Source of the DNA: a virus
Taxonomy: Duplodnaviria > Caudoviricetes
Strand: one strand, 5' to 3'
Virus record (IMG/VR): IMGVR_UViG_3300035670_000211
Span: 1-62,132 of that record
Length of the DNA: 62,132 bases
Under the pieces are notes generated by a model, which saw only the letters and a program-made list of their open reading frames with translations, was not told the DNA's origin and did no database searches. A program made the translations under genes and the position numbers. Of the stretch, positions 1-50,614 are shown in pieces (the first letter of the stretch is position 1; the number at the start of each line of letters is the position of its first letter).

Positions 1-125
1 GTAACCGGAGGAGTTCCCGTTGGAACACTTTCTGTTACATCTGTATCTTGGACAAATGGTTCTTCTCCTCTTGGTGGTTGAACTTGGTTAGGTTTGTTTT
101 GAGCTAAGCCTAAAAGATTATCCAT
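1..125 (-). CDS. hypothetical protein, N-terminal part (runs off window)
   Basis: ATG at 125 preceded by GGAGGAGG, just after the stop of 127..714; open to the window edge (MDNLLGLAQNKPNQ...). Confidence 0.6.
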   Translation of the reverse strand, partial: MDNLLGLAQNKPNQVQPPRGEEPFVQDTDVTESVPTGTPPV

Positions 126-126
126 A

Positions 127-714
127 TTATTGTCCTCCTCCTAACGCTGCTAAAATATCTGGCGCACCTTGTTGCGGCATTTCTTCTTCCATTCCAGGTT
201 GCGAAGTTGCTCCTGCTACCATAGGATTATCCCCTTCAATACCCATAGCTTCTGCTTGGGCTGGAGGCATACCGACTGCATCAGGAGAAGTAATTCTTTT
301 GATTGCTTCTAAAGAAGATTCGGATATCCCAGATAAAGATTCTTCGAAAGCTTCTTGCGTTCCTTTATCGGTAAAGTCTTTAGTTGCTGGGTCATAACCT
401 TTTTTAATAGCATCTTCAACATTCATCATACCCATGGGAGTATCAATCATATATTTTTCTGGATTTTTTTTCATATCAAAAATAAATTTTTCTGCATACT
501 TGCCGAGTTTCTTTTTAATTTTGCCCGGTTTTAATTTAGCTTTTTCGTCAGTTTCTTGAAACAAAGGTTTGTTTGTTTCAGGGTCGATACCATCTTCTGG
601 TTCGATTGTAATATTACCTTCTTGGTTTTCACCTACGGCAACAAGCTTGTTTAAAACCTCAGAGTCAAACTCTTGTTTAGAATCTTGTTGATTTAATTCT
701 TCTTCTTCGTTCAT
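127..714 (-). CDS. acidic hypothetical protein, possibly virion-associated
   Basis: 195-aa ORF with AAGGAG RBS; E/Q/P/G-rich termini. Confidence 0.75.
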   Translation of the reverse strand: MNEEEELNQQDSKQEFDSEVLNKLVAVGENQEGNITIEPEDGIDPETNKPLFQETDEKAKLKPGKIKKKLGKYAEKFIFDMKKNPEKYMIDTPMGMMNVEDAIKKGYDPATKDFTDKGTQEAFEESLSGISESSLEAIKRITSPDAVGMPPAQAEAMGIEGDNPMVAGATSQPGMEEEMPQQGAPDILAALGGGQ

Positions 715-715
715 T

Positions 716-949
716 CTAGATCTCCTTAAGAATGCTAAGATCTTTTCTATTAATGTATCCGTGCTTATCTGCTAATACAATTAATATCCGGTGATCTTTT
801 CTTTTATCATTATACTCTCCGGTCTTAATAAGTCGTATAGCTTGTTTAATGTTTGATTTAAGTATTTGTTCTGGAGTGCGAATTCTTTTTCTTTTTTTTC
901 GCATGACAATACGTTTTATTTTTTTCTCTAAATAATTACTTAAATTCAT
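716..949 (-). CDS. small basic hypothetical protein
   Basis: 77 aa, K/R-rich; TGnTATACT promoter just upstream, apparently leaderless. Confidence 0.6.
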   Translation of the reverse strand: MNLSNYLEKKIKRIVMRKKRKRIRTPEQILKSNIKQAIRLIKTGEYNDKRKDHRILIVLADKHGYINRKDLSILKEI

Positions 950-954
950 ATTCC

Positions 955-966
955 AAGTATATCATA
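955..966 (-). promoter_or_regulatory. extended -10 promoter (TATGATATACTT), leaderless, for 716..949
   Basis: TG-n-TATACT; the 12-mer ends 5 nt before the ATG; identical 12-mer at 1172-1183 on +. Confidence 0.5.
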
Positions 967-973
967 TTACAGG

Positions 974-1053
974 CGAGGACAGGTGGTAATTTAAACCACT
1001 TACATGGGCCAAGACTAAAGGCCATGTTCACGCTTCCTGGAAGTGCTGCCCTC
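974..1053 (-). ncRNA. aberrant tRNA-like RNA / pseudo-tRNA (8-bp acceptor, 5-bp T stem)
   Basis: GAGGGCAG/CTGTCCTC-G; GTGGT-TTAAATT-ACCAC; two internal hairpins; no canonical anticodon loop; ends GCCT, not NCCA. Confidence 0.45.
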
Positions 1054-1056
1054 ATG

Positions 1057-1144
1057 TGGTGGAGAAGAGGGGAGTCGAACCCCTGTCCTGATGCTTCAAT
1101 ATCAAACGCGATTTAATAGTTGCACCAGCGTGCCGTACTTCCCT
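1057..1144 (-). ncRNA. mini-tmRNA-like RNA (tRNA-like domain only, Ala G3-U70)
   Basis: AGGGAAG/CTTCTCC-ACCA acceptor; stemless D-loop TACGGCACG; CTGGTGC/GCATCAG helix; GAC connector; AGGGG-TTCGACT-CCCCT T arm. Confidence 0.7.
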
Positions 1145-1149
1145 AAATA

Positions 1150-1155
1150 ATTATA
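1150..1155 (-). promoter_or_regulatory. -10 box TATAAT for the mini-tmRNA-like RNA
   Basis: TATAAT with 5 nt between it and the first base (1144). Confidence 0.55.
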
Positions 1156-1171
1156 CTATATTTCTTAAGGG

Positions 1172-1183
1172 TATGATATACTT
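1172..1183 (+). promoter_or_regulatory. extended -10 promoter, leaderless, for 1190..1936
   Basis: TATGATATACTT followed by 6 nt then ATG; no SD. Confidence 0.5.
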
Positions 1184-1189
1184 AGTTAT

Positions 1190-1936
1190 ATGTCAAAAGT
1201 GGAAAGAATCTTTCAACCTTTAGTTATTCAAGATAAACAAGAGTTTTTAGAGATCTTAAAATCTGGAAAACTTAAGTATAGTAAGTACAATATTTTAACA
1301 GATCAGCAGAAGTTATTTGTTGAGCTTGTTGTTTTTGGTGGCTACACTGGCGAACAAGCCATGAAAGCTATTGATCCTAACATTCGTAACCCTAAATTAT
1401 TAGCAAATCGTATGGCTTCTGACCCTGACGTTGCAGCTACACTAGAAGAATTATCTGCTCAAAAAGATAAGAAATACATGACAGAGTTAACTGAAGCTAG
1501 AGAACTTGCGCTCTCTAAGCTCATGTTTATTATGTCTAATACGAAAGATGAAGCTCTTGCAGCAGCGGCAGCTAAGACAATTATTGATGCGTCTGGTAAG
1601 GCTAGCGCTGCTATTGCTAAGAAGGATGACGGTCAAGTTGGTCAAGTTAAGTTTTCTATTCAAGTCGAGAATGCTTACATGGGAACCCAGCCACCTTTGA
1701 AAGCAAAAGAGGAGCCTATTATTATTACAATTGATGATCAACAAAAGGAAGCTGAAGAAGCTAAAGCTAAGCAAGAGTTAGATTCTATTCATCAAGAAAT
1801 TGAATTGGAAAAAGAAAAATTAAATGCTGTTAAACAAAATGCAAACGCATTAAATGTAAATCCGGATACTGGATTACCTTATGTTTTTTCTTATGAGTCC
1901 GTGAACGCATATGAAGACAGCGATAACGAAGGCTAA
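1190..1936 (+). CDS. terminase small subunit-like protein (N-terminal HTH, C-terminal coiled coil)
   Basis: LTDQQKLFVELVV..G....AMKA...LANRMASDPDVAATLEEL resembles the TerS HTH pattern. Confidence 0.6.
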   Translation: MSKVERIFQPLVIQDKQEFLEILKSGKLKYSKYNILTDQQKLFVELVVFGGYTGEQAMKAIDPNIRNPKLLANRMASDPDVAATLEELSAQKDKKYMTELTEARELALSKLMFIMSNTKDEALAAAAAKTIIDASGKASAAIAKKDDGQVGQVKFSIQVENAYMGTQPPLKAKEEPIIITIDDQQKEAEEAKAKQELDSIHQEIELEKEKLNAVKQNANALNVNPDTGLPYVFSYESVNAYEDSDNEG

Positions 1937-2186
1937 AGAATTATTAAAAGGATTATTTTTAACCAAGGAAGGTTGGATTTCATGGCTTATTGCAAATGTG
2001 ATTACATCCTTACCGTGGGCAGTACCTTTAATTTACGGTTTTATTTTTAAAGATAGTCGTTCTTATATTATTGCTGGCAGCATTTGGACTTTTATGATGC
2101 TACCGATTACTCCTTTTTGGATCTTAAATGTTTTTATTGCATACTTTTTTTTAAAATTTTTAACCAAAAGAAAAACCCACGACTGA
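1911..2186 (+). CDS. small membrane protein (2-3 TM)
   Basis: 91 aa, hydrophobic and W-rich, basic C-terminus; overlaps the upstream ORF. Confidence 0.7.
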   Translation: MKTAITKAKELLKGLFLTKEGWISWLIANVITSLPWAVPLIYGFIFKDSRSYIIAGSIWTFMMLPITPFWILNVFIAYFFLKFLTKRKTHD

Positions 2187-2209
2187 AAGGTAGGGAAAGA
2201 TCGTGGGTT
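2166..2209 (-). terminator. intrinsic terminator
   Basis: AACCCACGA/TCGTGGGTT stem followed by TTTCTTTT. Confidence 0.65.
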
Positions 2210-2268
2210 CTGCAACCCATTTCAGGGTTGCTAAGAAAGGAGGTGAGTGAGGCGAGGTAAACCTCACT
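2166..2268 (-). ncRNA. candidate sRNA containing the anti-Shine-Dalgarno sequence
   Basis: own promoter; three hairpins; TCACCTCCTTTCTT (2233-2246); last hairpin followed by a U tract. Confidence 0.6.
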
Positions 2269-2273
2269 CTTTT
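2245..2273 (+). terminator. intrinsic terminator for the + strand TerS-like operon
   Basis: GAGTGAGG/CCTCACTC stem followed by TTTT. Confidence 0.5.
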
Positions 2274-2301
2274 ATTATAGCAAATCTTTTTAAACGTACA
2301 A
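2274..2301 (-). promoter_or_regulatory. sigma-A type promoter
   Basis: TTGTAC-N16-TATAAT with TGn extension; no ORF downstream, points into the sRNA. Confidence 0.65.
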
Positions 2302-4209
2302 CTATTTCTTCTTGAATTCAATATTTATTTCTAATTTAACGGAGTTCAAGAAATTTGTTTGGTTCAATGCATGTCGCAATGAGTTTGTGCACCACATCTT
2401 GTAATCAGAATAAGCTTCAGCTTCATTCATGTTTTCAATGTGTCTAATTTGAGCTGAATGTTTTTCGTGGAACCAAGATAATACAGATGAGTTATCAATC
2501 TTATATTGTTCCATCATTGCTACAACTTCCTCTGGTGTTGTAAATTCTTTGGTCGTAGTTAGTAACTTATTGATAGCAACTACCGCTCGGTAAGCTGCGT
2601 AGTCTAACGAGTCTTGCGACAATAACTTTTGTTTAAATACAAGCCCATCAACACGAGATACATTGTTTAAATTTGCTTCGAACGGTATAATTGTTAATCT
2701 TCTATAGAATCCGAATGATTGATCAGGTGTTCTTGGCATTTTATTCGCGGCAAAGAACAGCGTTGCAAACATTGATTTCGATTGTGCGTCTTTGTATTTT
2801 TGTTCAACCATAATTTCATCACCTGAAATAATTGACTTGACAAGATCGCTATCAGTTAGCGGTTGTGCACTAATGTCACCTGCTAATGATGCAAGTTTAT
2901 TATTCATTGCCGATGCTCTGAAGTTATTTGCTAGATCTTTAAATGATATGGCGGTTGTGTTTTCTTTTCCTAAGACTTCTTTAATTAAATCTAAGAAAGT
3001 CGACTTGCCATTTCTACCACTACCCACTAATAAGAACGCTTTTTGTAACTCATTTGTTTTTAACATTGAGTATCCAATTGCTTCATAAAGTAGTTCTTCA
3101 ATATCTTTTTTATTATTGGTTGCCGTTGCGAAATATTCATCTACAATTTTAGAATGTGCATTTGGATTATAGTTACAATTAATTTGTATTGACTCGTTAT
3201 GATCAGGAGTCATTGGTTCAAAGTGCATTGTATTTATATCTAGTACACCATTCTTGAATACAATCGTGTAAGGGTTGTTGTTGAATTTTACTGATTCTTC
3301 GTATAGATATGCTTGAATGTATTTTAATGTTTCTTCTTTTTGGTAATGTTTTAAACTTGGAATTAGTTTTGTCATGTAACCCATTAAGTAATCTACATCT
3401 GTAGAATATACTTTTTTCTTTTCGTTATAGAAGTAAAGCTCTTTGCTAACCTCATCTCTTTTTACAAAACAATTTTTAATAACATAGTTGCCTAGTCTAT
3501 CGTGAAAGAACTTATCTTTATCGAAGAATTGTTTTATTAATTGTTCTTCGCTAAGTTGCAGCACATTCTCTAATTCAAATTCTTGAAGTGGAGTGGTGCA
3601 GAATTCTTTATTTACGAGTCGTACAACTTCAACTTGTTTTAACTGGCTTAATCCAGTTGCTTTCATTTTAGACAGGATATCAAGTAACACAACTTGTTGG
3701 TTTCCGGTTATCGGTAAGTTAATTCCATCATTAATTGAGTTTGATATTTTTCTTATTGGCATTAACCAATCAGGTAGCATACCAATTGTTTGTCCGTATA
3801 CAAGATCTATTTTCTTTAAAGCTTCCGAGCTACTACCTTTAACTTTGAATGGTAGTAATATACTTTTGCCTGCGCCTATGGTGTCTGCATTAATACCACA
3901 AGCAAGTTTGTTTAGCTTTGTCGATCTTGTGAAGCTTGATTTAGCAATGATCTTTATATTTCTTTCTCCGCTTTGTATGACAATAACGGGCTCAGATCTT
4001 GCTTGAATTATTTCTAAGATAGAGATTTGCTCGGTCTCAATAACTATATATCCTTCCGGAATAATCCACATTACTTCCAAACTTGGATCGTCAGAAATTG
4101 TTTTGATTGTTGATGCGTTTGTTTTAATTGCTTGCCTACCAGAGACAGAAGCAACATACATGTCATCGTCGTGTGGATTAACTAGTTTATTGAATTCCCT
4201 AAAGTTCAT
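2302..4209 (-). CDS. D5/P4-family primase-helicase (SF3 helicase)
   Basis: D5_N-like FKNGVLDI; Walker A GSGRNGKST; KSIISGD..VEQKY; FAANKMP; GFYRRLTIIPF; divergent N-terminal region. Confidence 0.9.
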   Translation of the reverse strand: MNFREFNKLVNPHDDDMYVASVSGRQAIKTNASTIKTISDDPSLEVMWIIPEGYIVIETEQISILEIIQARSEPVIVIQSGERNIKIIAKSSFTRSTKLNKLACGINADTIGAGKSILLPFKVKGSSSEALKKIDLVYGQTIGMLPDWLMPIRKISNSINDGINLPITGNQQVVLLDILSKMKATGLSQLKQVEVVRLVNKEFCTTPLQEFELENVLQLSEEQLIKQFFDKDKFFHDRLGNYVIKNCFVKRDEVSKELYFYNEKKKVYSTDVDYLMGYMTKLIPSLKHYQKEETLKYIQAYLYEESVKFNNNPYTIVFKNGVLDINTMHFEPMTPDHNESIQINCNYNPNAHSKIVDEYFATATNNKKDIEELLYEAIGYSMLKTNELQKAFLLVGSGRNGKSTFLDLIKEVLGKENTTAISFKDLANNFRASAMNNKLASLAGDISAQPLTDSDLVKSIISGDEIMVEQKYKDAQSKSMFATLFFAANKMPRTPDQSFGFYRRLTIIPFEANLNNVSRVDGLVFKQKLLSQDSLDYAAYRAVVAINKLLTTTKEFTTPEEVVAMMEQYKIDNSSVLSWFHEKHSAQIRHIENMNEAEAYSDYKMWCTNSLRHALNQTNFLNSVKLEINIEFKKK

Positions 4210-4232
4210 TTTACTCCTTTCTTTTAACGAAT

Positions 4233-4424
4233 CTATTCTCCAAACAAATCATCGATTGTCTTGCCTAGAGATGATGCGATTTTTCTACAAATGCTTATTG
4301 ATGGGTTTAGCTTATTCGTTTCAATCTTTCTTATTGTTTCCCGGCTAATACCACAAAGCCTTGCCAGTCCTTCTTGAGAAAGACCGGCGTCAGTTCTAGC
4401 AAACTTTAATTTGTTGCCATCCAT
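4233..4424 (-). CDS. XRE/Cro-like HTH regulator
   Basis: LKFAR...GLSQEGLARLCGISRETIRKIE...NPS. Confidence 0.9.
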   Translation of the reverse strand: MDGNKLKFARTDAGLSQEGLARLCGISRETIRKIETNKLNPSISICRKIASSLGKTIDDLFGE

Positions 4425-5148: not shown

Positions 5149-5976
5149 TTATTTACCTTCTTTCTTTGGTTCTTTTAGTTCAGACATTTTGTCTAAGACA
5201 TTCTTTTTAAACTTATCAAATGTTAAGTTTTGTACTTTGTTAGGTACAGTCATCTCTTGTGGTTTGCGAGTTTTCGTCAATAAGTACGGATGTGCATCCA
5301 AGTAAGTAAAGTATTTTATTTCATCTTTAACTTCATTAGTTTTTGCATCAATTACTTTTTCCGTTTCAACTTTTGTGTACCATACAAAGGATGCTTTGGC
5401 ACATAAGGCGTATGCAGCGCTATTCATTAATGAAGGAATTACTTTATTAAAAGAACTATTTTCTTCATCTTGAACTTCTTTTTGGTGAGCAATGATTACA
5501 ATTAATGCACCAGTTTTTTTGTGCAAGTATTTGGAAAGGTTCCAGATTTGTTCGTGGCTTGTCTTTGCTTGCCCCCACAAATTTAAATTCATTGTATCCT
5601 TTTGATTTGATTCCATAAGATACTTCTTCATCAAGAATTCAAGTTGCGTAGCACTATCAAATACAATGGTTGAGAATGCGACGTCAACTTTCTTTCCTTG
5701 TTCGTCCATGGTATAACCATTCTCTACGTCAGTTAAAACAGAGTTTAATTCTAAAAAGCCGTTGATGTCAACAACCTGAATATGTTCTGCTTGGTTCATT
5801 GAGATCGAACCTGTACCACCTTCTAAGATATCTAAGATAAGCATTGGCTTTTCTTTTGTCTTTGGGAATGTTGACGCAAGAACAGTTTTACCTGTACCTG
5901 GTCCTCCATAAATTACAAACACTCCGTCAATGGATGTTTCGGCAATCGTCTTACTTTTTTCTGATAATATACTCAT
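5149..5976 (-). CDS. Sak4-like / AAA_24 ATPase (single-strand annealing)
   Basis: IYGGPGTGKT, LDILEGG, TIVFDSAT, IIAH; flanked by nuclease and SSB-like genes. Confidence 0.8.
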   Translation of the reverse strand: MSILSEKSKTIAETSIDGVFVIYGGPGTGKTVLASTFPKTKEKPMLILDILEGGTGSISMNQAEHIQVVDINGFLELNSVLTDVENGYTMDEQGKKVDVAFSTIVFDSATQLEFLMKKYLMESNQKDTMNLNLWGQAKTSHEQIWNLSKYLHKKTGALIVIIAHQKEVQDEENSSFNKVIPSLMNSAAYALCAKASFVWYTKVETEKVIDAKTNEVKDEIKYFTYLDAHPYLLTKTRKPQEMTVPNKVQNLTFDKFKKNVLDKMSELKEPKKEGK

Positions 5977-7075: not shown

Positions 7076-7843
7076 CTATAACAAACAAATTTTTTTATAC
7101 TCTAAATAAACTTCTCTTCCGTTTATAAATATCTTTTTATAGTTTTTGTTGTTTCTTTTTCCCACGAGATCTCTTATACCTTGTCTGCTATACTTTGTAA
7201 TTCTAACTGCTTCTGTATTAGTCACTATTTTAAAGATTTTGTTATTGTCTTTAAATTTAACAATGTATCTAAAAACTTTTTTAATTTTAAATTTTCCTTT
7301 TTTTGATTCTTTTACACGTTCGTTAATTAAATTAATTAAACTATTTTCTTCAAAATCTTTTCTTTTAAATACATAATATCCCCCAAGACTTTTTCTATAC
7401 TTAGCTTTTTTGGAAATTGCTAAAGCGCAGTTTATTTTTAATTTAATACTACACTCTGTTGTTGAGTAAAACTCTATTGGTCTCTCTATTAAAAAGCTAG
7501 AGTTTGCTTTTACAGCAATAAGTGCTTTTGTATTTATTCCTCCCCAGCCACCTTTGTTCGAGTTGTAACCATTGTAATATGTGTTTTCTTTTTTTATATA
7601 AAACTTTTCTTTTTCGAAAGCTTTTTTTCTATTTAAATTTTTTTCTAATATAGAAACGTTCCAACACTTATCACCGTAAAGTCTTATCGCTTCGTCTAAT
7701 TTATATTTAAAACCATAAGATCTTGCTGAGTAGACGTGTTGTTTCCATCTTTCTTCTTCGTTTGTTGATGATGTTAGGCCAACGTAAGATAGCCCTGTTA
7801 CTGTGCATGTTCTTTTGTAAATTAAATATTTTTTATTTTTCAA
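7076..7843 (-). CDS. GIY-YIG homing endonuclease (free-standing)
   Basis: LIY-x10-YVG, RWKQH, EKFYI, GYN; basic C-terminal DNA-binding region; very AT-rich. Confidence 0.85.
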   Translation of the reverse strand: MKNKKYLIYKRTCTVTGLSYVGLTSSTNEEERWKQHVYSARSYGFKYKLDEAIRLYGDKCWNVSILEKNLNRKKAFEKEKFYIKKENTYYNGYNSNKGGWGGINTKALIAVKANSSFLIERPIEFYSTTECSIKLKINCALAISKKAKYRKSLGGYYVFKRKDFEENSLINLINERVKESKKGKFKIKKVFRYIVKFKDNNKIFKIVTNTEAVRITKYSRQGIRDLVGKRNNKNYKKIFINGREVYLEYKKICLL

Positions 7844-43200: not shown

Positions 43201-45110
43201 GGATCAAACAATGAACCCCATGCTTTTAAGTCAAACATATCACCAGTTGTAGCAAGTGACGATTGTGTTCCCATGGTAAAAAAGTTTTCTACCATATCCA
43301 TAACGGAGTTAACAACAATAAAACTTGTTCTTTGAGAATAATTTTTGCTCCAATTCAAAATAAACGTAGACCAACTATTTGACATCAAATTATTTGCTTT
43401 AATGTTTGCTGCGTTTCCAAACGTTGCTTTTTGCCACGTAGCTAAACGCGTTAAGGCTGGCGTATCACCAACCGATCGCAAGAAGAATGAAATACCAAAG
43501 TTCATGGCAGCCATTGTTGCAGCTTTGCCTACGATTTCTCCAGTTTCCATTCCGAGTTGTGCTTTGTTTGCTTCAAGCGCAGCAACGGTTGTTGTAAAAT
43601 CTTTGACGGCTAAAAAGCCTAGCCCACGTACGGTTGCTTGAGTTGCTGTCAATAACGTACCGGAACTTGAGTAAACACCTTGGCCTAAACCAATCATCCC
43701 GTTAATCGCGTTACCAATACCACGAGCTGCTTGATATTTTAATCCTGTGCCAACGGTAGCTCTTACGGTTTGCCCAGATGCAAGTGTAATTGATTTAACA
43801 CCGGCATTTGCTAGCAAGCTTGCACCTTTGGTTGCCGCCAACATACCGACTAAAAATCCAAGTCCTCTTGCTGTGCCACGGCCAATACCGTCCCAGTTCA
43901 CAGATCCATCAGAGTTTGTCCAACCCCCATTTGCTTCATAAACGCCATTACCAAATAAATATTGAGATGCTTTCCAGCCTTCAACATTTTTATAGGTTTC
44001 GGCAAGAATGTCAAATTCAAAATCGCCGCCGATCATTTGAAGGGCGTCGGCAATACCAGCACCGGCATAAATAAACAAATCACCAATCCCGGCAATGGAA
44101 CTTGCAAACCCTTGAATAAACTGATCTCCGTAAACGCCAAAGATTGCAGGAATTTCAATACGGTTTAACGAACCGTCTTTATTATAGTACGCTTTCGCGC
44201 CACGTTCACCAGCTTCACCTGGATCATAAACTTTATAAAGGATTCCGTTGCGGTGAAGATACCAATCAACCTTACCATCGCCATCTTCATCAATGGTTGG
44301 ATTAAAGTCTTTAAGCAAACCTGCTTTATATAAACGAACGATTTCCGTTTCCGATTCAATGACATCATCGAGTGCATCGAATTGTTCTTTGAACAACACG
44401 GCAAGTTGCTCGTCTTCTAATTTGTTTTGATCTTCGAAATTTGAAAGCAACGAATTACGCGTTGTTAACGTATTACGTTGAGAGTACCATACTTCGCGTT
44501 GATACATAGCTTCGGCTTGCGATAAAATATTTTGTAAATAGGTTAAATTATCGATGGGTGAATCCATCATTCCTTGCTTACGTCGGTTATACCAATAGAG
44601 CGAGGATTTTAAATCATGCCCTTCGGCTTTAAGAATGTCTTCGCCATATGCGCGAAATAAAAAAGTTTGGTATCCGATTCTTCCTTCGGACACATCCTTT
44701 TCTAGTTTCTTAATTTTTTCTTCCCGTAGCAAGAGCTTTGCATCGAGTTCGAATCCTTTTGGTACAAATTGGTTTTGTCTGTAGTATTCCGTAAAGGATT
44801 GATCGTCACTTAATCCAACCGCTGCTCGTAATTCAGTTGCACGGGTAACACCTAAGGTTTCACCGTAAATTGATTTATTGCTAGGGGGTGTATCATATGT
44901 CGAAGCGTCACTTACTCGGACTACTCCAGATGCCCATTGTACCGAACCTTCTTCAGTAGCTTTATTGATCTCATCATCTTGAAAGTCATTTACATTAAAG
45001 CGAGGTGTTTCAAACTTCGGTTCAGGAAGTTTTAACTCTGGAGCTTTAAGCTCGACTTTAAACGGATCAGGAAGCTTACCGAATGAAGGGTCGAAATTTT
45101 GACCATCCAT
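28296..45110 (-). CDS. giant (5,604 aa) polyvalent/ejected protein: putative virion two-barrel RNA polymerase with a DEDDh exonuclease domain
   Basis: R-Y-P...GDVDGD (aa ~3307-3353); DLKFTVAGTKNFK...ADFVF (aa ~3868-3906); ExoI-III motifs (aa ~2637-2861); hydrophobic N- and C-terminal regions. Confidence 0.8.
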   Translation of the reverse strand: MDGQNFDPSFGKLPDPFKVELKAPELKLPEPKFETPRFNVNDFQDDEINKATEEGSVQWASGVVRVSDASTYDTPPSNKSIYGETLGVTRATELRAAVGLSDDQSFTEYYRQNQFVPKGFELDAKLLLREEKIKKLEKDVSEGRIGYQTFLFRAYGEDILKAEGHDLKSSLYWYNRRKQGMMDSPIDNLTYLQNILSQAEAMYQREVWYSQRNTLTTRNSLLSNFEDQNKLEDEQLAVLFKEQFDALDDVIESETEIVRLYKAGLLKDFNPTIDEDGDGKVDWYLHRNGILYKVYDPGEAGERGAKAYYNKDGSLNRIEIPAIFGVYGDQFIQGFASSIAGIGDLFIYAGAGIADALQMIGGDFEFDILAETYKNVEGWKASQYLFGNGVYEANGGWTNSDGSVNWDGIGRGTARGLGFLVGMLAATKGASLLANAGVKSITLASGQTVRATVGTGLKYQAARGIGNAINGMIGLGQGVYSSSGTLLTATQATVRGLGFLAVKDFTTTVAALEANKAQLGMETGEIVGKAATMAAMNFGISFFLRSVGDTPALTRLATWQKATFGNAANIKANNLMSNSWSTFILNWSKNYSQRTSFIVVNSVMDMVENFFTMGTQSSLATTGDMFDLKAWGSLFDPQNIALQGSLLFRNVAGGLRGDDMQMGVAGVTVKLGNLQKMYEGEIVSYLKLADKLSAEGKTDAADAILKTIEKARAMQSGRKDKNIVLGTQDALVYLHETFKNDSNVSPVSKAMEKKFKENMREEIILATNAAVEQYSNFVAAKNGMVQSSFITGDIFDPTSKLYEGMTSDKLKKIDTVVKGFVSGLAQIRTFDKTEASEVVSLLTKNDQIAVFKNREEVIKLLQTSEADPVSMRDVFEIQVTKDKKTKKEKTEIVLKNKFLDKLSKLPEADRTKIIENLNKFIAEKLGGDAKALADFYIIMPRNKGSSDSESQQQYAKAIQILKTLSDVVAAESEVEGGVRTIERIGESDVYLIPMVHIGMGAKNAQNLNAMMVNLFTIKFADNAEDKATALKYLLENLTGEKFDDLMKRPDKVNGVLKTLNALASKGYLTTLQLADVLNNGNIRNIIENNRSLISGTSFSKIEEAFQYSAALEKIKTLKDDISNIPKGNKAVSPEMYKRVQAFITFYENLPAEVKAELIKKRLINEDELKIAASINPQTDVARLKKIFSSSLLGSGFDPNKKEDQEIIRFIEEEFINSEGFKEKFQEESGRTYRQNLEGRIAREKNQFRKLVLQGVLSKVTSSQTPVALTEADIRDIIDNVALKNQDANNKFGKSVTAEDVFETVQEINSQTFRSVFFGDQDKTLVDQFIWNIYKKNSKNKPEYTFDEYSKNKKRNGEKYSPRALVHASVFKDPDMTKTFIENARSGERMTFASKLFSEWFIKDTADAKSSFKIVLNVNELIGSRWKQLRQALSNPNVRAESGNQLDDPQELIKMVFGKDYASVASVELMKELTQKENLPMIYRDQLKETGGLLTFEFYMEDGRIVFKSLDQKQVLINILEKFGYDIYDIENQMEDIDGVYMHVENSGKAMSLSFGSIEEKNAFLRSLRTRATELVDEKIKQEIKSNLDYRERLIQRTGGVPYITDDTVFTFDGVKFIPTFLGVESTEDNPFKVTYVTSVFDAFKGGEIKQGKLGGLLIKAYAMSRALPGASIGIDANLQRDHFIYDVIRTIDEFANKTRGQAEQTEESYNKLIVYLTDEEVQAFKDNGDLYDITPITKRKVAGEQFRQYEIAPKLGFQEKALTYLQNNPNNVQLKYILPLVMYDKPSSYEVAMADYLKQNNLEDSTNRAVSNARRLERNSSGADLIIYVNENVRSIYSENFIKEMYGAPFNITYKSFVSDDIKNGEQEVIDAVKGKTFAEIIELNNDPRFKNNIYFTMLYRQLIGAKFYTEEILFGENNTFGFNSDNKNLAELLADSTIKTMLADGLEEIESANLADKDAIKQKIVNRINDFIKNQNKRERQKVYVLEKDPGSLADFSKKETDKVTSYNIESLGVRNNLKGTISVADIDDIIDTFKNDYEFYRASSYKANNELQDPTISKLLAILETSSSSDNKLNIFVEDLFRLSPEEFKKIKNILVADGRIAKDSIQKLEEKFKSIEKNSTYYRQTFEENYRKPYTYEKSFIKLHNTPSASRTNAVAVVKANDPLSKSNFKKQIQEAASRSKAEPQIGKKQIKLSLADFATDNLMRLFKNMLEEDLYSSFSASRLMNNLSHAKFLGEYVYNIAGVSKALKDFMGEKDPSLTTKDYVKIAMSLYNQASGVTYDRSFPAFFLYDKQTGKVIGIDGTGNNKQALDKIGFIYFKDIENETSDRYWMFNVDKNAFNASGSDLREGFRALELNQENKTKVRSIISNYILKEVGELQALENETMKDKIARVLTRNPTIKDKADYIQTVLETNPTIKKLLDQYTPRGKKQLIKNLFLMGENVRVGSPTNSLALQRSLNSIRWSDPSYRTDTRKQNNLIRNINNFAYLINPEAIPYNFNVAKNIVEKLYNEKTKNQIDFNINKKANQSNEDYRKRIGEIFIEINENGTTSVKAQNQIKALALKYGPLLGEEKVVQDIFAHFVYNKNNGATYNFLMLNNDINNIVVKSLSTEDTKIMNGRYDFRSLLNQELYYGDVESLDNMVYEMSLIKTNPVTDLKETLLNPNNAFANSGKKILIPMFYKGRFLNKTLLNELVPGNQPLEIQIKTLMPEFYDKFIKDNKEVTLRNLENYFKNIDNVVKNIPDFEKLGKKAVQDYIIKEAASYGYTNVGKELPLLVSFNGASFDFGSKDIDGILVKSGIFNTRENIFNQNHLDVLQDIIKEKRFISETIFEDQQKNSLSFLAERFGVKVLGAHDSIEDVKTLAKVLFVLADDFKNTNRITSNILVTLDDIHKAATGREIDQETTIRIGEGVEKIKEEDIGDESTLEFVKAYRDAFDPKNTSAIDEAIGKSMSVIKDYLDSIERDVYRKKVNEMINDDLRNKIKVYENIQKNTSRFLPQMLEYFLAKKYPNKPLDTNVSSYVKKGIESESASGYFTGDLFNLFKFAIGSEYEETGTRAISQYKYDEFFSVESEEEAFNILAKAVKTNWGIQDISYEDFQNNKKLYSGNIIRDASENFLETSFVDETTGVIRTGKEYLQAVNDNEVSRREVNSFRNAQETIFEDVFKGLPEDVVLNMLNKSAEVYLRNVNLDQNSFEERVRLRGLFGSNKFLNQLKSVLNKYSFGSNFRRSEFYDRVTATDRNREYKLYNEKGDVVLEKLKANEIAMSEKTYKELTGISYEDSLKVFYPDDTGKKRYRNIPLNIIRYPQDGIGRQAVLNVRILDKSETKYLNKPIMNLDVLKAFLSGDVDGDSISILQPTKGSVAFNTAISKNYNLIFDIFDQGFDSLLTQEKNILSGSLSETQKVVLDFETQRNFASQFIVADLDNLNKNTINYETLRTQRKDYLKNLLREDANKFSDKDLDDILDQIWIKQYDITEFAKSVGESPFTYVSLNIFASDIEINRNAFLLLNAAKIFNFEKQAAADVYSGYKQKLTNKMSEKINSQDGRALFNYAAFDVSEGTFNIISRNIDATKAAMLTSMVAQADSVRRIIGSDMYKYIVNLVANAETGNDIVSAFQLMNKFIMESEDTKDKFAFGLNQYKNLDKDILDSIKSENLEVLKAFGILTGAFDGKKEFDLENMTMLDFNSKMERIFAAIKSNNLGNYWASSNNSAKRNLNFQLEIQKILDSTENNSRSYKEMYDSVHDIYDKDSDGFVSDMHVNAMILINQNVFGENIEVDTHKIVRGNKKTYGAESISLYKLYGEKVNFEDAKILLGLQAQNRKILKSDILLGNGKTIPAGSKIESVIKNKDGTLNVVFTYKRGYDADLKFTVAGTKNFKSTLGGTVNDNLENAIRDSGVEADFVFSQDSFKQKNATPFFNKILKSRIEKGLVEYYRFVDGKFEKVDSIKDADAWMIKQLPTMISQESFFRRDLKERFTDDIAISTGRRNLTGPIITKDYLFEVDGNEIKFSDKIIEDGYKSFETYNQPTLLENNAASLHAYMLNVINIKYSNLSEAEKTKRYKNLTNYSSSELMDLFSKEFKILHKSEPDFFERLSPIEKILVSDELYQMFLQDGNPRILTSVADLEFSSKTASFARKNAQENKKLRNFRTQGGLARDLTTSKYGENIVLSEAFGNMGMVEYLQFLINKTNEAYGTNIYNLSRKNLQDLSIKKILNLGQGVGGSISDNFGTINLNDALLIDNPQVIGKGSTSQKTGEYIKSPVNSVESGVLKPSLYSEQGAPRLTQEDYTNEEYLNYRSFDSETGKFTSKNYGPELNVELGNGNKRLFRSEARFLANIIGATARAKNNYERATLFGYNPSIYLPFSLTNIAVNPNDQRIQLAYTPDFINSDLKNVTQDLRKKLSSDRFLDIVNAKGKTIKDALGKNLISKGFSEANGKALELQEREDMQSVLKRAAIFGDEIRNTQLDTLLRNLNPEEDFGDSYEAQFQKRIEYQENIEALTTQFKADLLASGGIKVGTTLDLEVERMVKDYATNQKFFMKKFSRPLENLADLAERYGAYQELQKYAALKYYNVVIPQIEAALGKEGILEKDKVELTMLLKNYKEEYSAILGKYNTGEEFVSFFERAYAPLVNYFNSVNKQLGEQFRAYSIVTDQASDMLLYLIKPKVKKGFEKGEQVLSKISMFTYNDESLFKAKDLSGPNYFVNMFDKIAILTKQATIYTMSQKIKQLGLTANKGVMEYVEDSLLNILEIEAKKMVLFKKENAEEAMYNYENFVSDIMRFVPEDEFAAYMQIKKQFISKNTFGENLLSIYKKINETLHNKNVPSKTELENTLRTADKKSKEWDVAYKMMKLYEFKEQTLIMLTNMIDSKDSGNKSVLNGIYEGLKVYAEKNGLELTDRFGRLLSEDPTKYKALFPGSTNELKHLVKFSYFGGGFEKNIVLDALGGEVFVTNKSLANFLDKEVFTTRMPNKILDSIAKLNGITSKLIMSNPFRFIDRLVGFTLYDVATLSSSEPTTMLKIGRAMNEVSAMLQSNFAVISPEMQEFLNETGMGLDKTKLTEIFADYNPEKNTSKLLDNAYFNVFEKGFAAQNIVGRYAYWLAVKEKFDTNKPVNYGPSYDVREAIKNLSAKKDPESGEIIVSASGRKAGYMLSNVLGSPGDFPIMAKKLRGLVMFSTFPLAAARFARNMLGSASVAIKDLMLPENRSDAVRWLSGTALGTAGLFALPWLLFEIWGTLLGLEDEEKEKWKEEGGMPELFRTMYTGSPVINRFNTFNQYALLDSMTIKPFRDAMAEGGTFMDGVGRFFLDNIAARAPAPAKLMAETLGGVDTFGGTIRDVSDQWSMWENFQRKLLGYVIGGSGANALTTYLNKDAQYENNNVIEMIGIGFGKVVEAEMGNTAAYKSEIRNYYKANSLIQTERFKESEGREYSQSNFDLEKYNSLRSEIGRALRRKAKPSVIYGIIVNALESGVGIPEVRSALRNNSLEYKLSTIQNLEGFLSQLSDSEEKTIRDAIAYERQTYPFLDDYVMQVNDLYTTTYNYENTPRKIYIPRVYTNNNRYPARLDTNGYLRNTRFNPYFRIQDPYKAYRASWYNIMNFDDEER

Positions 45111-46470: not shown

Positions 46471-46546
46471 TGGCCTCCCCGATACGATTCGAACGTATGA
46501 CCCACAGCTTAGAAGGCTGTTGCTCTATCCTCTGAGCTACGGAGAG
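46471..46546 (-). tRNA. tRNA-Arg(TCT)
   Basis: CTCTCCG/CGGGGAG-G-CCA; D arm GCTC/GAGC; ACAGC-CTTCTAA-GCTGT; T loop TTCGAAT; 76 nt. Confidence 0.95.
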
Positions 46547-49291: not shown

Positions 49292-49352
49292 ATAAGTTTC
49301 TGAAGTCTATTGGTTTATTCCAGTAGACTTTGGTGATCTATTTATTAGATCA
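49289..49352 (+). promoter_or_regulatory. intergenic structured element A, copy 3
   Basis: TAAATA; 14-bp hairpin; TGATCTA-TTTAT-TAGATCA. Confidence 0.65.
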
Positions 49353-49399
49353 AACATTAGGGTAGCGACCTACGCTAAAATGAAAGGAGGTTTTTACCA

Positions 49400-49699
49400 A
49401 TGGTAAATTACCTTACTGACATCTTCGAAAAGATCGAAGCTTTACTTAAGCTCTTCGAATCGAAAGATGTCACAGTGTCGTACGTGGACCGCATGTTTTA
49501 TGCGATGGATCTCCACGCTCTTGCCTTTGACCTTCGGGTCAATAAGATTCCTCAAATGGAATCTGAAATGGAACGCCTTGATTATAAGGCGATCGATCCA
49601 TTACCTGGCTTTGCTGAAGACTTAGCGAAAGCTAAGCAACTTGAAGCTAAAGCTATGGCTGCCTACAAAGTTTATTTAAATCGTAATAAAGGAGAGTAA
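49400..49699 (+). CDS. early hypothetical protein
   Basis: 99 aa; TGAAAGGAGG RBS. Confidence 0.8.
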   Translation: MVNYLTDIFEKIEALLKLFESKDVTVSYVDRMFYAMDLHALAFDLRVNKIPQMESEMERLDYKAIDPLPGFAEDLAKAKQLEAKAMAAYKVYLNRNKGE

Positions 49700-49700
49700 C

Positions 49701-49859
49701 ATGAGTGAAAACAAAAAAGTAATCTCTAAGAAAGATTACCTTAAGCAACTTCGCGTTGCTATCAAAGATCAATATGGTGTTGATCTTTCTCACTTCACCG
49801 ATGATATGGTGGTTGAATTCTTGAACATAGACTTCACCACTGTTGATTGGGTTAAATAA
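49701..49859 (+). CDS. small hypothetical protein (52 aa, not in ORF track)
   Basis: AAAGGAGAG RBS; MSENKKVISKKDYLKQLRVAIKDQYG... Confidence 0.7.
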   Translation: MSENKKVISKKDYLKQLRVAIKDQYGVDLSHFTDDMVVEFLNIDFTTVDWVK

Positions 49860-49863
49860 TTTT

Positions 49864-49894
49864 ATGACCTGAGTCACGTCATTAAACTGACTCA
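49864..49894 (+). promoter_or_regulatory. H-type pseudoknot element B, copy 1
   Basis: ATGAC/GTCAT stem; loop TGAGTCA pairs with TGACTCA after a TAAAC linker. Confidence 0.65.
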
Positions 49895-50014
49895 TCTTAT
49901 TATGATGTCTTGCGTAAGCCGACATCGTGGTGTAACTCCACAAGACTTTTATTGTTTTCTTGTCTTTTATTGTTATCTTTATTTGTTTGTTCGTAACCTA
50001 TGGAGGGTAAAAAA

Positions 50015-50614
50015 ATGAAAAACAAAACTAAAGACGTTATTATTTCTGAGTTGCAAAAAGATAATGCTGCTCTTCTTTCTAGTCTAGAAAAAATGAAAGC
50101 TGCTTTTGCTGAGGAAGAGAAAGCTCATTATGTAAAGAGAAATGATCTTATCAAAGAAAATCGTTCTCTTTTGTCTGGGCTTTGTTTTTTTACAGATACA
50201 ATAGGGCTTTCCTCTATTATTCAGAAGATCCCCTTGGATCAAAAGAAAGATCTTTTGTTACATTTAGTTCTTACTTATAATGCAAATGGTCCGGAAGATT
50301 TAATCAAAAGTTTTTCTGACGAAAATTTTTCTTCTCGACGTGTTTTTATACGCGATTTACTCGATTCAATAACAAATGAAGAGTATGTTATTCGCTATGA
50401 TATTATACAGGCCACTATTGAAAGAGATAATATTGAGAAGAAAATTTTGCTTAATGACATTTATTATTTTCTTTCTTTGCGTTGTCACAAACGTAAATCT
50501 TTTGAGGCTAAATTTAATGATTATCTTTTTTCTACGTATAAAACTAAGCTTCTTGAGTCTTTAACTTTTAATGAGTTACTTTCATTAAAGGAAAAGTTTT
50601 TTAAGAACAAATAA
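50015..50614 (+). CDS. early hypothetical protein (N-terminal coiled coil)
   Basis: start moved to MKNKT (GGAGG RBS). Confidence 0.75.
   Translation: MKNKTKDVIISELQKDNAALLSSLEKMKAAFAEEEKAHYVKRNDLIKENRSLLSGLCFFTDTIGLSSIIQKIPLDQKKDLLLHLVLTYNANGPEDLIKSFSDENFSSRRVFIRDLLDSITNEEYVIRYDIIQATIERDNIEKKILLNDIYYFLSLRCHKRKSFEAKFNDYLFSTYKTKLLESLTFNELLSLKEKFFKNK

What the first reader, a model, noticed from the sequence alone, without database searches (positions are those of the whole stretch)
1057..1155. Stand-alone tmRNA tRNA-like domain: an 88-nt mini-tmRNA with no mRNA-like domain
Seen (minus strand): AGGGAAG-TACGGCACG-CTGGTGC-[hairpin]-GCATCAG-GAC-AGGGG-TTCGACT-CCCCT-CTTCTCC-ACCA, with TATAAT just upstream. 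Known: G3-U70 with A73, a D-loop with GG but no D-stem, helix 2a and the 3-nt GAC connector are the hallmarks of the SmpB-binding tmRNA TLD. Here the usual tag ORF and pseudoknot region is replaced by a short hairpin whose 7-nt loop A-T-CGC-G-T could be read as an Ala anticodon (possibly chance). Pair 1-72 is an A-C mismatch. Inference: a phage SmpB sponge that blocks trans-translation, a tag-free ribosome-rescue RNA, or a nuclease decoy. I know TLD-only tmRNAs from some protist mitochondria but not from phages.
Basis: partly seen in the sequence, partly recalled or inferred. Interest (0 to 1): 0.85.

Follow-up and report, generated by a model that had tools for sequence, protein, structure and literature searches.

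The report
Phage tmRNA mimic lacking its message
This phage carries an 88-base RNA gene that copies only the tRNA-like end of the bacterial ribosome-rescue RNA (tmRNA), a kind described once before in a phage and, by the scans run here, common in viral contigs.

Summary
On the minus strand at 1057-1144 lies an 88-nt RNA gene with a 7-bp acceptor stem (G3.U70, A73, CCA), a 9-nt stemless D-loop with GG, a capped helix 2a, a 3-nt connector and a tmRNA-type T-arm. TATAAT sits 5 nt upstream. Rfam's tmRNA model aligns end to end with the whole message and pseudoknot part deleted (35.4 bits, below its cut-off of 47). It is not an attP scar or a decayed gene. Four related phages, found through the neighbouring protein gene, carry a homologue in the same spacer, and 10 of 18 base pairs show compensatory changes. 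Two pattern scans of IMG/VR gave more than 110 further viral contigs with tRNA-like-domain-only (TLD-only) tmRNAs; in the unbiased set, G3.U70 and A73 are present in 60 of 60. The kind is not new: mycobacteriophage DS6A is listed as "TLD only" (Hudson et al. 2014), with SmpB titration proposed as its action. The window's RNA belongs to a reduced-D-loop variant that I found only in metagenomic phages. Most likely it is an alanine-accepting, SmpB-dependent competitor of host tmRNA that suppresses ssrA tagging. This function is inferred; no expression or binding data were available.

The parts
1057..1144 (-). 88-nt TLD-only tmRNA gene (mini-tmRNA). It comprises acceptor stem, stemless 9-nt D-loop, capped helix 2a, GAC connector, T-arm and A73-CCA.
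   Evidence: Sequence. Rfam tmRNA, model positions 1-374, 35.4 bits. Own model R1, 56.3 bits, the only hit in the window. Homologues at the syntenic site with covariation.
1138..1144 (-). Acceptor 5' strand, nt 1-7. A1 is mismatched with C72; G3 pairs with U70.
   Evidence: Nt 1 is also mismatched in homologues L047 (C) and L048 (A).
1129..1137 (-). D-loop analogue: 9 nt, no D-stem, GG at nt 11-12, A14, G16.
   Evidence: The same 9-nt layout is seen in the four syntenic homologues found by protein synteny.
1088..1128 (-). Helix 2a (7 bp, 1128-1122 with 1094-1088) closed by an AT-rich hairpin (1121-1095). This stands where the tag reading frame and pseudoknots of a tmRNA would be.
   Evidence: Fold. 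All 6 modelled helix pairs change on both sides among the 5 syntenic sequences. The cap varies in sequence and length.
1085..1087 (-). 3-nt connector GAC between helix 2a and the T-arm.
   Evidence: In the 27 unique sequences of this subtype the first base is A in 21, G in 3 and T in 3; the AC was fixed by the search pattern.
1068..1084 (-). T-arm: 5-bp stem and 7-nt loop of tmRNA/tRNA type.
   Evidence: The two outer stem pairs covary.
1057..1067 (-). Acceptor 3' strand (1067-1061), discriminator A73 and encoded CCA (1060-1057).
1150..1155 (-). TATAAT -10-like box 5 nt upstream of nt 1. The predicted transcription start falls at or next to nt 1 (inference).
   Evidence: TATAAT lies 4-8 nt upstream in L044, L047 and L048, and TATCAT 6 nt upstream in L046. 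The consensus scan found no full -35/-10 promoter here.
972..1053 (-). Second, non-canonical tRNA-shaped RNA directly downstream. It has a closing stem of 8-9 bp, three arms including a 5-bp/7-nt T-arm-like hairpin, and a 3' GCC. It belongs to the same ~195-nt insert; its role is unknown.
   Evidence: Fold: z -1.87, 10 of 200 shuffles fold as well. An analogous element ending GCCA follows the mini in L046 (z -2.59). Not called by ARAGORN and no Rfam match up to E 10 over 950-1300.
716..949 (-). Downstream 77-aa gene of unknown function. It has its own -10-like box (TTACCA-17-TATGAT, 989-961).
   Evidence: Homologues lie at the same place in L003 and L044-L048.
1190..1936 (+). Divergently transcribed 248-aa gene with no family match. 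It was used as the synteny anchor.

Best explanation
The element is a functional, phage-encoded tmRNA mimic that keeps only the tRNA-like domain (the DS6A type). It lies on a ~195-nt insert between two divergent phage genes and probably has its own promoter. Shown here: the anatomy, membership of a conserved phage RNA family with compensatory base changes, invariant alanine identity marks (G3.U70, A73), and the absence of any tag reading frame. Inferred: host AlaRS charges it with alanine, and it binds host SmpB (and EF-Tu). It then competes with host tmRNA for SmpB and for the empty A site of stalled ribosomes. Because it carries no resume codon or tag, the net effect is to suppress ssrA tagging. 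It does so either by titrating SmpB or by occupying stalled ribosomes without templating a degradation tag. My odds: real, selected TLD-only RNA gene about 0.9; SmpB-dependent competition with host tmRNA as its mode of action about 0.5.
For: (1) The anatomy is as described. Rfam tmRNA aligns 1-374 with the internal part deleted, E 3.4e-14. (2) Homologues were found without using the RNA. The neighbouring 248-aa protein retrieved 10 metagenome loci. Four of them (L044, L046, L047, L048; 67-71% protein identity) carry a 79-92-nt homologue in the same spacer. Across the five sequences 95.6% of cells pair (shuffles 69.9%) and 10 of 18 pairs change on both sides. The covariation score is 0.761 against 0.172, with 0 of 500 shuffles as high and slid controls at 0.07-0.12. 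(3) Wider family: 39 sequences give 93.2% paired against 68.3%, and a score of 0.587 against 0.124, with 0 of 500 shuffles as high. (4) Alanine identity is under selection. One scan specified only the D-loop hexamer, GGAC and the T-arm. In it, 76 of 80 loci have a 7/7 acceptor stem, and all 60 unique sequences have G3.U70 and A73. The five syntenic sequences have G3.U70 in 5 of 5. (5) Canonical members score over Rfam's tmRNA cut-off: 76, 69.9, 67.5 and 58.9 bits, and 61.8, 59.3 and 57.1 bits in three isolate phages. (6) No SmpB gene was found in the window or in 36 other records that carry such RNAs, so any partner is the host's. (7) Precedent: DS6A is listed as 'TLD only'. Hudson et al. 2014 state that a similar molecule, chargeable or not, strongly inhibits tmRNA, perhaps by titrating SmpB, citing Mao et al. 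2009 (PMC4131195, passages read). The DS6A element (28478-28560) matches my model at 41.8 bits and Rfam tmRNA at 43.2 bits. (8) Not an att site: no tyrosine integrase or serine recombinase domain in the window, and the RNA sits between a primase/Sak4 module and unknown genes.
Against: There are no expression data: no RNA run holds the stretch. No binding or charging was tested. The Rfam score (35.4) is below the cut-off of 47, and the fold energy is ordinary (z -0.85). The window's subtype has a shortened D-loop and lacks the conserved hexamer of canonical TLDs, so SmpB binding is less certain than for the canonical phage forms. A1.C72 could weaken charging or EF-Tu binding. My model's bit score alone does not discriminate. 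It gives 34-57 bits to 76 pattern-selected 3' parts of ordinary bacterial tmRNAs, so membership rests on acceptor complementarity, size, context and synteny. The element is dispensable: 6 related loci whose spacer is covered lack it (L003, L045, L050-L053). If Mao et al.'s inhibitor did not need charging, as reported second-hand, the invariant G3.U70 and A73 suggest that more than passive SmpB titration is selected. That favours entry into the ribosome and blurs the line with the tag-free-rescue rival. I could not read Mao et al. 2009.
Confidence: 0.55

Rival explanations
1. Tag-free ribosome rescue. The charged RNA, with host SmpB, enters stalled ribosomes and donates alanine. The peptidyl-RNA is then released and hydrolysed, so ribosomes are recycled without marking phage proteins for degradation. 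On this reading it helps translation rather than inhibiting rescue.
For: Alanine identity marks are invariant: 60 of 60 in the unbiased set and 5 of 5 in the syntenic set. CCA is encoded in the window. These fit a requirement for charging, which pure SmpB titration would not need. TLD-only tmRNAs are the sole tmRNA in jakobid mitochondria and some plastids. There they are thought to help with incomplete mRNAs (PMC11915505, passage read).
Against: No release mechanism after alanine transfer is known for a template-less tmRNA. The only functional result on record, seen second-hand in PMC4131195, is inhibition of tmRNA. Nothing was tested here.
Confidence: 0.22
2. Decoy or trigger-blocker for a host factor other than SmpB in rescue. 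Candidates are a tRNA- or tmRNA-cleaving defence nuclease, a defence system with an SmpB-like sensor domain, or RNA repair and processing enzymes.
For: Many of these RNAs sit in phage tRNA arrays. In the window and in L046, a second non-canonical tRNA-shaped RNA follows the mini, which suggests a set of tRNA mimics. Defence systems with SmpB-like domains have been predicted (PMC11090510, passages read).
Against: This is pure inference. No defence or anti-defence gene was linked to the locus here, and the conserved features are exactly those of the SmpB/AlaRS-facing TLD.
Confidence: 0.12
3. Non-functional remnant: a decayed captured ssrA copy or an attP scar carrying the 3' end of the host tmRNA gene.
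For: The element is part of an insert missing from the closest relatives (L003 and L045, 78% identity of the neighbouring protein). The Rfam score is below the cut-off. Nt 1 is mismatched.
Against: The 5' strand and D-loop are conserved and covary with the 3' strand across five phages. Helix 2a is kept through changes on both sides in 6 of 6 pairs. A -10 box is kept upstream. No integrase was found in the window, though the record is only about 45% complete.
Confidence: 0.04
4. An unusual D-armless tRNA-Ala that decodes GCG through the CGC in the cap loop.
For: A 7-nt loop reading A-U-CGC-G-U can be drawn, together with G3.U70. ARAGORN does call two family members as odd tRNAs: L071 as tRNA-Ile and L057 as tRNA-Pro.
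Against: The arm would be about 13-15 bp long with an internal loop, far from a 5-bp anticodon stem. The cap differs in length and sequence in all four syntenic homologues, and none shows an Ala anticodon loop in the printed folds. ARAGORN calls no tRNA here, and any Rfam tRNA match scored below tmRNA in clan competition.
Confidence: 0.02

Closest known systems
TLD-only tmRNA of Mycobacterium phage DS6A (tmRNA Website tmID 11587; Hudson, Lau and Williams 2014, PMC4131195; again in PMC11915505, 2025)
   Same: Phage-borne and about 83 nt. It has an acceptor stem with G3.U70 and A73, a stemless D-loop with GG, a helix 2a closed by a small hairpin, a 3-nt connector and a T-arm, with no tag frame or pseudoknots. 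Like the window's RNA it scores below Rfam's tmRNA cut-off (43.2 against 35.4 bits) and matches my family model (41.8 against 56.3 bits).
   Different: DS6A keeps a longer D-loop ending in the canonical ...TCGAC motif and has no encoded CCA. The window's RNA has a 9-nt D-loop without that motif, an encoded CCA, an A1.C72 mismatch and a -10 box 5 nt upstream. DS6A has an integrase about 10 kb away; none was found in the window.
Bacterial tmRNA (SsrA; Rfam RF00023)
   Same: The tRNA-like domain: acceptor stem with G3.U70, A73-CCA, T-arm, GG in a stemless D-loop, and helix 2a.
   Different: The whole message-like domain is missing: resume codon, tag frame, stop codon and the pseudoknots. Only 41 nt (nt 17-57) lie between the D-loop and the connector. 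The score is below the family cut-off.
Reduced tmRNAs of jakobid mitochondria and some plastids (mt-tmRNA; CDS-less plastid forms, PMC11915505)
   Same: TLD-only architecture with no tag reading frame (PMC11915505 passage; PMC3590771 abstract in the listing).
   Different: Those are the organelle's only tmRNA and work with an imported SmpB. The phage RNA would meet a full-length host tmRNA as a competitor. No sequence comparison was made here, because Rfam's clan filter hid any mt-tmRNA score.
Full-length phage tmRNAs (for example mycobacteriophage Bxz1 group, Streptomyces phages, Melnitz two-piece tmRNA)
   Same: Phage-encoded members of the tmRNA world; the 3' TLD is similar (PMC4131195; PMC9004378 passages).
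   Different: Those encode tag peptides (annotations); the window's RNA cannot.

Membership tests
tmRNA (RF00023), sensu stricto | tRNA-like domain: 7-bp acceptor stem with G3.U70, A73, CCA, T-arm and stemless D-loop with GG | tested here: met
   Pair 1-72 is A.C.
tmRNA (RF00023), sensu stricto | Message-like domain with resume codon, tag reading frame and stop codon | tested here: not met
   Only a 7-bp helix and a 27-nt hairpin lie between the TLD halves. The model's internal positions are deleted.
tmRNA (RF00023), sensu stricto | Pseudoknots PK1-PK4 | tested here: not met
   There is no room in 88 nt. The divergent gene's start codon is 45 nt upstream of nt 1.
tmRNA (RF00023), sensu stricto | Score at or above Rfam's gathering cut-off (47 bits) | tested here: not met
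   35.4 bits; 25.3 and 28.3 bits in truncated alignments.
Phage TLD-only tmRNA (DS6A type) | About 70-100 nt; the 5' and 3' TLD halves are joined directly by a capped helix 2a; phage genome | tested here: met
   The window is a tailed-phage record.
Phage TLD-only tmRNA (DS6A type) | Homology to other members, shown by a family model built without the window | tested here: met
   R1 gives 56.3 bits, E 5.7e-9, and is the only hit in the window. The same model hits DS6A at 41.8 bits. Caveat: R1 also gives 34-57 bits to pattern-selected bacterial tmRNA 3' parts.
Phage TLD-only tmRNA (DS6A type) | Structure kept by compensatory changes in relatives | tested here: met
   Five syntenic sequences: 10 of 18 pairs change on both sides, 0 of 500 shuffles as high. 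39 sequences: 0 of 500.
Phage TLD-only tmRNA (DS6A type) | Alanylation by AlaRS, binding of SmpB, inhibition of tmRNA | not testable with these tools
   Only sequence marks (G3.U70, A73, CCA) are seen. The inhibition result for a similar molecule is known to me only through PMC4131195.
tRNA (RF00005) | Cloverleaf with D-stem, 5-bp anticodon stem and 7-nt anticodon loop | tested here: not met
   No D-stem. The central arm is 7 bp plus a further hairpin. ARAGORN makes no call. tmRNA outranks other clan members.
attP / ssrA 3' fragment of a temperate phage | Only the 3' part of ssrA is present, next to an integrase | tested here: not met
   The 5' half is present and covaries. No PF00589 or PF07508 match in the window. 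The record is about 45% complete, so an integrase elsewhere in the genome is not excluded.
mt-tmRNA (jakobid mitochondria) | Match to the Rfam mt-tmRNA model | not tested
   Lower-scoring clan members are hidden by the tool.

The most novel reading that the evidence does not exclude
TLD-only tmRNA mimics are a widespread, largely unannotated class of phage small RNAs, not a DS6A oddity. They come in at least two architectural types: canonical D-loop, and a reduced 9-nt D-loop as in this window. All keep the alanine identity marks. Through them many unrelated phages take control of host trans-translation or evade a defence that senses it. In this window's lineage the RNA is a leaderless primary transcript whose first base need not pair, and it is sometimes teamed with a second CCA-ended tRNA mimic.
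Probability: 0.4. Interest if true: 0.8.

Novelty: new variant of a known kind. Interest (0 to 1): 0.62.

Why it matters
If these RNAs bind SmpB and enter stalled ribosomes, many phages carry a ready-made natural inhibitor or re-director of trans-translation. That pathway is essential or important in many bacteria and is pursued as an antibiotic target. The family offers dozens of natural minimal SmpB/AlaRS ligands with built-in sequence variation for structure-function work. It also makes a question directly testable: do phages manipulate ribosome rescue? There is an annotation gap as well. ARAGORN misses these RNAs or calls them odd tRNAs. The reduced type falls below Rfam's tmRNA cut-off. 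In one isolate phage the RNA lies under a 'hypothetical protein'.

Tried and rejected
Near-identity searches led nowhere. Megablast of window 1-4300 against isolate phages gave no match. blastn of the element found only generic tmRNA 3' ends. The exact 3' 32-mer had no match in IMG/VR. The exact 5' 19-mer hit one GC-rich coding region by chance (L005).

Two representatives of the reduced subtype (L074, L068) were compared with isolate phages by blastn. One gave a partial hit and the other none, so the subtype is so far metagenomic only.

The genome-contig scan with the reduced-type pattern returned mostly ordinary tmRNA 3' parts. One of 81 matches passed my acceptor filter, and that one looks like an ordinary tmRNA. 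R1 plus inspection showed one true mini, L187.

Expression: no RNA holder was listed. The four DNA holders come from one study. Logan contigs break inside the element, and a separate 442-nt contig shares both halves with other flanks. This suggests a second copy in another context, but it was not followed up.

The permuted (two-piece) tmRNA reading was rejected. The Rfam tmRNA_permuted match (19 and 30.7 bits) covers only the T-arm, the acceptor 3' strand and loose flanks. A complete acceptor stem forms within the 88 nt.

I looked for a tag frame downstream of the CCA and saw no tag-like reading frame by eye.

The host could not be identified. The best primase matches are 27-28% identical, to phages of Bacillota.

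Mao et al. 2009 is not held, so its result is cited only through PMC4131195. Supplements were not consulted; the tmRNA database tables of PMC11915505 may list further phage TLD-only entries that I could not see.

Literature searches for further reports of phage TLD-only tmRNAs found only the DS6A mentions.

Full report
What is there. The window is an IMG/VR virus record of 62,132 bases, linear, with CheckV completeness about 45% and 35.2% G+C. It carries tailed-phage genes: large terminase, head, adaptor, tail fibre, exonuclease, D5-type primase/helicase and a Sak4-like protein.

- a 7-nt acceptor 5' strand;
- a 9-nt loop with GG and no D-stem;
- a 7-bp helix closed by a 27-nt AT-rich hairpin;
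- GAC;
- a 5-bp/7-nt T-arm of the tmRNA/tRNA type;
- the complementary acceptor 3' strand;
- ACCA.

Pair 3-70 is G.U, nt 73 is A and pair 1-72 is A.C. TATAAT lies at 1155-1150, 5 nt upstream of nt 1. RNAfold returns this structure as the minimum-energy and centroid fold, but its energy is ordinary (z -0.85). ARAGORN calls nothing here.

Rfam's tmRNA model, run over the record, aligns model positions 1-374 to 1057-1144 at 35.4 bits, E 3.4e-14, below the gathering cut-off of 47. In other words, both TLD halves align and everything between them is deleted.

Context. The RNA lies between a divergent 248-aa gene (1190-1936, +) and a 77-aa gene (716-949, -). Neither has a family match. The start codon of the 248-aa gene is only 45 nt upstream of nt 1, so there is no room for a full tmRNA. 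No SmpB, tyrosine integrase or serine-recombinase domain was found in the window.

The one IMG/VR relative found through proteins (primase 69% and 248-aa protein 78% identical) lacks the RNA. There a TTATAAT box is followed after 6 nt by the ATG of the 77-aa homologue. The window therefore has a ~195-nt insert made of the 88-nt RNA and a further 107 nt.

Homologues at the same site. I used the alignment of the two 248-aa proteins to scan metagenome contigs, which gave 10 loci. In the spacer upstream of the gene, L044, L046, L047 and L048 each carry a 79-92-nt homologue. L045 and L050-L053 do not, and L049 does not cover the spacer.

These four were found without reference to the RNA, so they are an unbiased sample. 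All have the same layout:
- a 9-nt D-loop with GG at nt 11-12, A14 and G16;
- a helix starting at nt 17, with a cap that varies in length and sequence;
- a connector of the form N-A-C;
- a T-arm, A73 and CC(A).

The acceptor stems differ through paired changes, as do the outer two T-stem pairs and all six modelled helix-2a pairs. On the five sequences 95.6% of cells pair (shuffles 69.9%) and 10 of 18 pairs change on both sides. The covariation score is 0.761 against 0.172 (0 of 500 shuffles as high), and slid controls give 0.07-0.12. The alignment was fitted to the model, which favours the structure somewhat, but the slid controls come from the same alignment.

G3.U70 is present in 5 of 5. Nt 1 pairs with C72 in only 2 of 5 (A, C and A in the window, L047 and L048). 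A TATAAT or TATCAT box lies 4-8 nt upstream in all five, so the predicted start of transcription falls at or next to nt 1. I infer that the RNA may be a primary transcript with little or no leader, which would explain a free choice of first base. This is not shown. The consensus scan finds no full -35/-10 promoter there.

A wider family. A generic pattern (GGG, CGG, a short gap, GGAC, T-arm, CCACCA) hit 29 IMG/VR stretches. Six have a 7/7 acceptor stem only 49-54 nt upstream of GGAC. L023's record is not held. L032 was not included in that search. For the four records searched (L009, L012, L020, L031), Rfam tmRNA gives 58.9-76 bits, all as 1-374 alignments over the cut-off.

blastn with these found unannotated copies in isolate phages:
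- Streptomyces phage Shaeky, inside a tRNA array;
- Streptomyces phage LuckySocke, with a match in GiJojo that was not inspected;
- Stenotrophomonas virus Jojan60, just upstream of its primase and under a 'hypothetical protein'.
Shaeky, LuckySocke and Jojan60 score 57.1-61.8 bits.

A pattern modelled on the window's subtype hit 59 IMG/VR stretches. Of these, 39 have acceptor pairs 2-7 and the T-stem fully paired, and several of the other 20 are the same RNA with a D-loop one base longer. With the window and its four syntenic homologues, the sequences that passed the acceptor filter make 27 unique sequences.

A third scan specified only the canonical D-loop hexamer, a gap of 18-45, GGAC and the T-arm. 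Of these, 76 have a 7/7 acceptor stem and 60 sequences are unique. All 60 have G3.U70 and A73, although neither was in the pattern. CCA is encoded in 16 of 60. This is the cleanest sign that alanine identity is under selection.

Over 39 sequences of both types, 93.2% of cells pair (68.3% in shuffles) and the covariation score is 0.587 against 0.124 (0 of 500). In that set G2-G4 and C71-C72 (and U70 for the second pattern) were fixed by the search patterns.

None of 36 records that carry such RNAs encodes SmpB. Seven of the 36 have a tyrosine integrase, but many records are fragments.

Membership of the window's RNA. A covariance model (R1) built from 26 sequences of the reduced subtype, with the window left out, finds 1057-1144 as the only match in the window (56.3 bits, E 5.7e-9, full length).

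A control weakens the value of that number. On 80 bacterial loci that the same pattern had picked from genome contigs, R1 gives 34-57 bits to 76 segments that are the 3' parts of ordinary tmRNAs, and 68.7 bits to one true 80-nt mini (L187). Membership therefore rests on the whole picture: complementary acceptor strands 77 nt apart, helix 2a closing directly, no space for a tmRNA body, phage context, and above all the syntenic homologues.

What is known. Hudson, Lau and Williams 2014 list 'Mycobacterium phage DS6A (TLD only)'. They write that it is little more than the TLD, and that a similar molecule, chargeable or not, strongly inhibits tmRNA, perhaps by titrating SmpB, citing Mao et al. 2009 (PMC4131195; passages read). 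A 2025 database paper mentions DS6A again, beside CDS-less plastid and mitochondrial forms (PMC11915505; passage read).

I located the DS6A element at 28478-28560, between gp33 and a DNA polymerase III gene. It scores 43.2 bits with Rfam tmRNA (also below the cut-off) and 41.8 bits with R1, and it has the same architecture. Seven literature searches found no other report of phage TLD-only tmRNAs. Mao et al. 2009 is not held, and supplements were not seen.

So the kind is known from one phage. What is added here is that it is common in viral contigs, and that the window represents a reduced-D-loop variant. That variant is missed by ARAGORN, falls below Rfam's cut-off, and was not found in isolate phages.

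How it most likely works. Shown: the TLD anatomy, selection on the structure, selection on the alanine identity marks, the absence of any tag frame, and no phage SmpB. Inferred from established knowledge of trans-translation:
- AlaRS recognises G3.U70;
- SmpB binds the TLD elbow and stands in for the anticodon arm;
- Ala-tmRNA.SmpB.EF-Tu enters the empty A site of a stalled ribosome.

The phage RNA would be charged, would bind host SmpB, and would compete with host tmRNA. With no resume codon it cannot template a tag, so ssrA tagging is suppressed. This could happen by SmpB titration, as proposed for DS6A, or by dead-end or tag-free occupancy of stalled ribosomes. The invariant charging marks suggest that ribosome entry, not only SmpB binding, is selected.

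The rivals are tag-free rescue, a decoy for another host factor, a remnant or att scar, and a decoding tRNA-Ala. The last two are disfavoured by the covariation, the variable cap and the lack of an integrase.

Verdict. The structural interpretation is supported, the function is untested, and the claim of no phage precedent is wrong. Interest is moderate to high because the class appears widespread and testable.

Noticed in passing
window 972-1053 (-); L046 about 2815-2895 (-): Directly after the mini-tmRNA lies a second tRNA-shaped RNA. It has a closing stem of 8-9 bp, a small hairpin, a long central arm with a 9-nt loop, a 5-bp/7-nt T-arm-like hairpin, and a 3' GCC. L046 has an analogous D-armless element ending GCCA at the same place (z -2.59). 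Neither is called by ARAGORN or Rfam. This may be a second kind of tRNA mimic.
   Followed up: partly
window 28299-45110 (-): A single open reading frame of 5,604 codons, very large for a phage, next to the large terminase gene.
   Followed up: no
window 59827-61326 (-), 61326-62060 (-), 7079-7843 (-): A GroEL-like chaperonin (PHROG 5725, E 4.5e-63), a ferredoxin-like gene and a GIY-YIG-type homing endonuclease.
   Followed up: no
L073 around 658-736; L063 around 5806-5890: In these phages the mini-tmRNA is bracketed by a ~15-nt inverted repeat. The two loci differ by a matched change on both arms, which suggests a processing stem around the RNA.
   Followed up: partly
L071 2851-2938; L057 6251-6339; L042 (Jojan60) 1389-1529: ARAGORN calls two family members as odd tRNAs: tRNA-Ile(gat) and tRNA-Pro(agg). 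In Stenotrophomonas virus Jojan60 the RNA overlaps an annotated 'hypothetical protein'. In Shaeky and LuckySocke nothing is annotated there.
   Followed up: partly
L003 about 3950-3965; L044, L045, L047, L048 downstream of the mini: The 77-aa gene's homologues have a TGnTATAAT-like box ending 6-7 nt before the ATG, with no visible ribosome-binding site. These look like leaderless mRNAs.
   Followed up: no
L233 (DS6A) 49300-50502: DS6A, the published TLD-only carrier, also encodes an RtcB-like RNA ligase. A paper read states that tmRNA is the most frequent RtcB target in bacteria.
   Followed up: no
window 1057-1143, runs X1-X3: Assembly contigs of the source community break inside the element. 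A separate 442-nt contig carries both halves (4 differences in the 5' half) with different flanks, so a second copy in another context is likely.
   Followed up: no
L074 988-1215, L088 1233-1463, L065 3370-3624: In three otherwise unrelated contigs the mini-tmRNA lies directly next to a homologue of the window's 91-aa gene (1911-2186, 58-67% identity). That gene has no family match.
   Followed up: no
window 46471-46546 (-): tRNA-Arg(UCU), the only canonical tRNA in the window.
   Followed up: no
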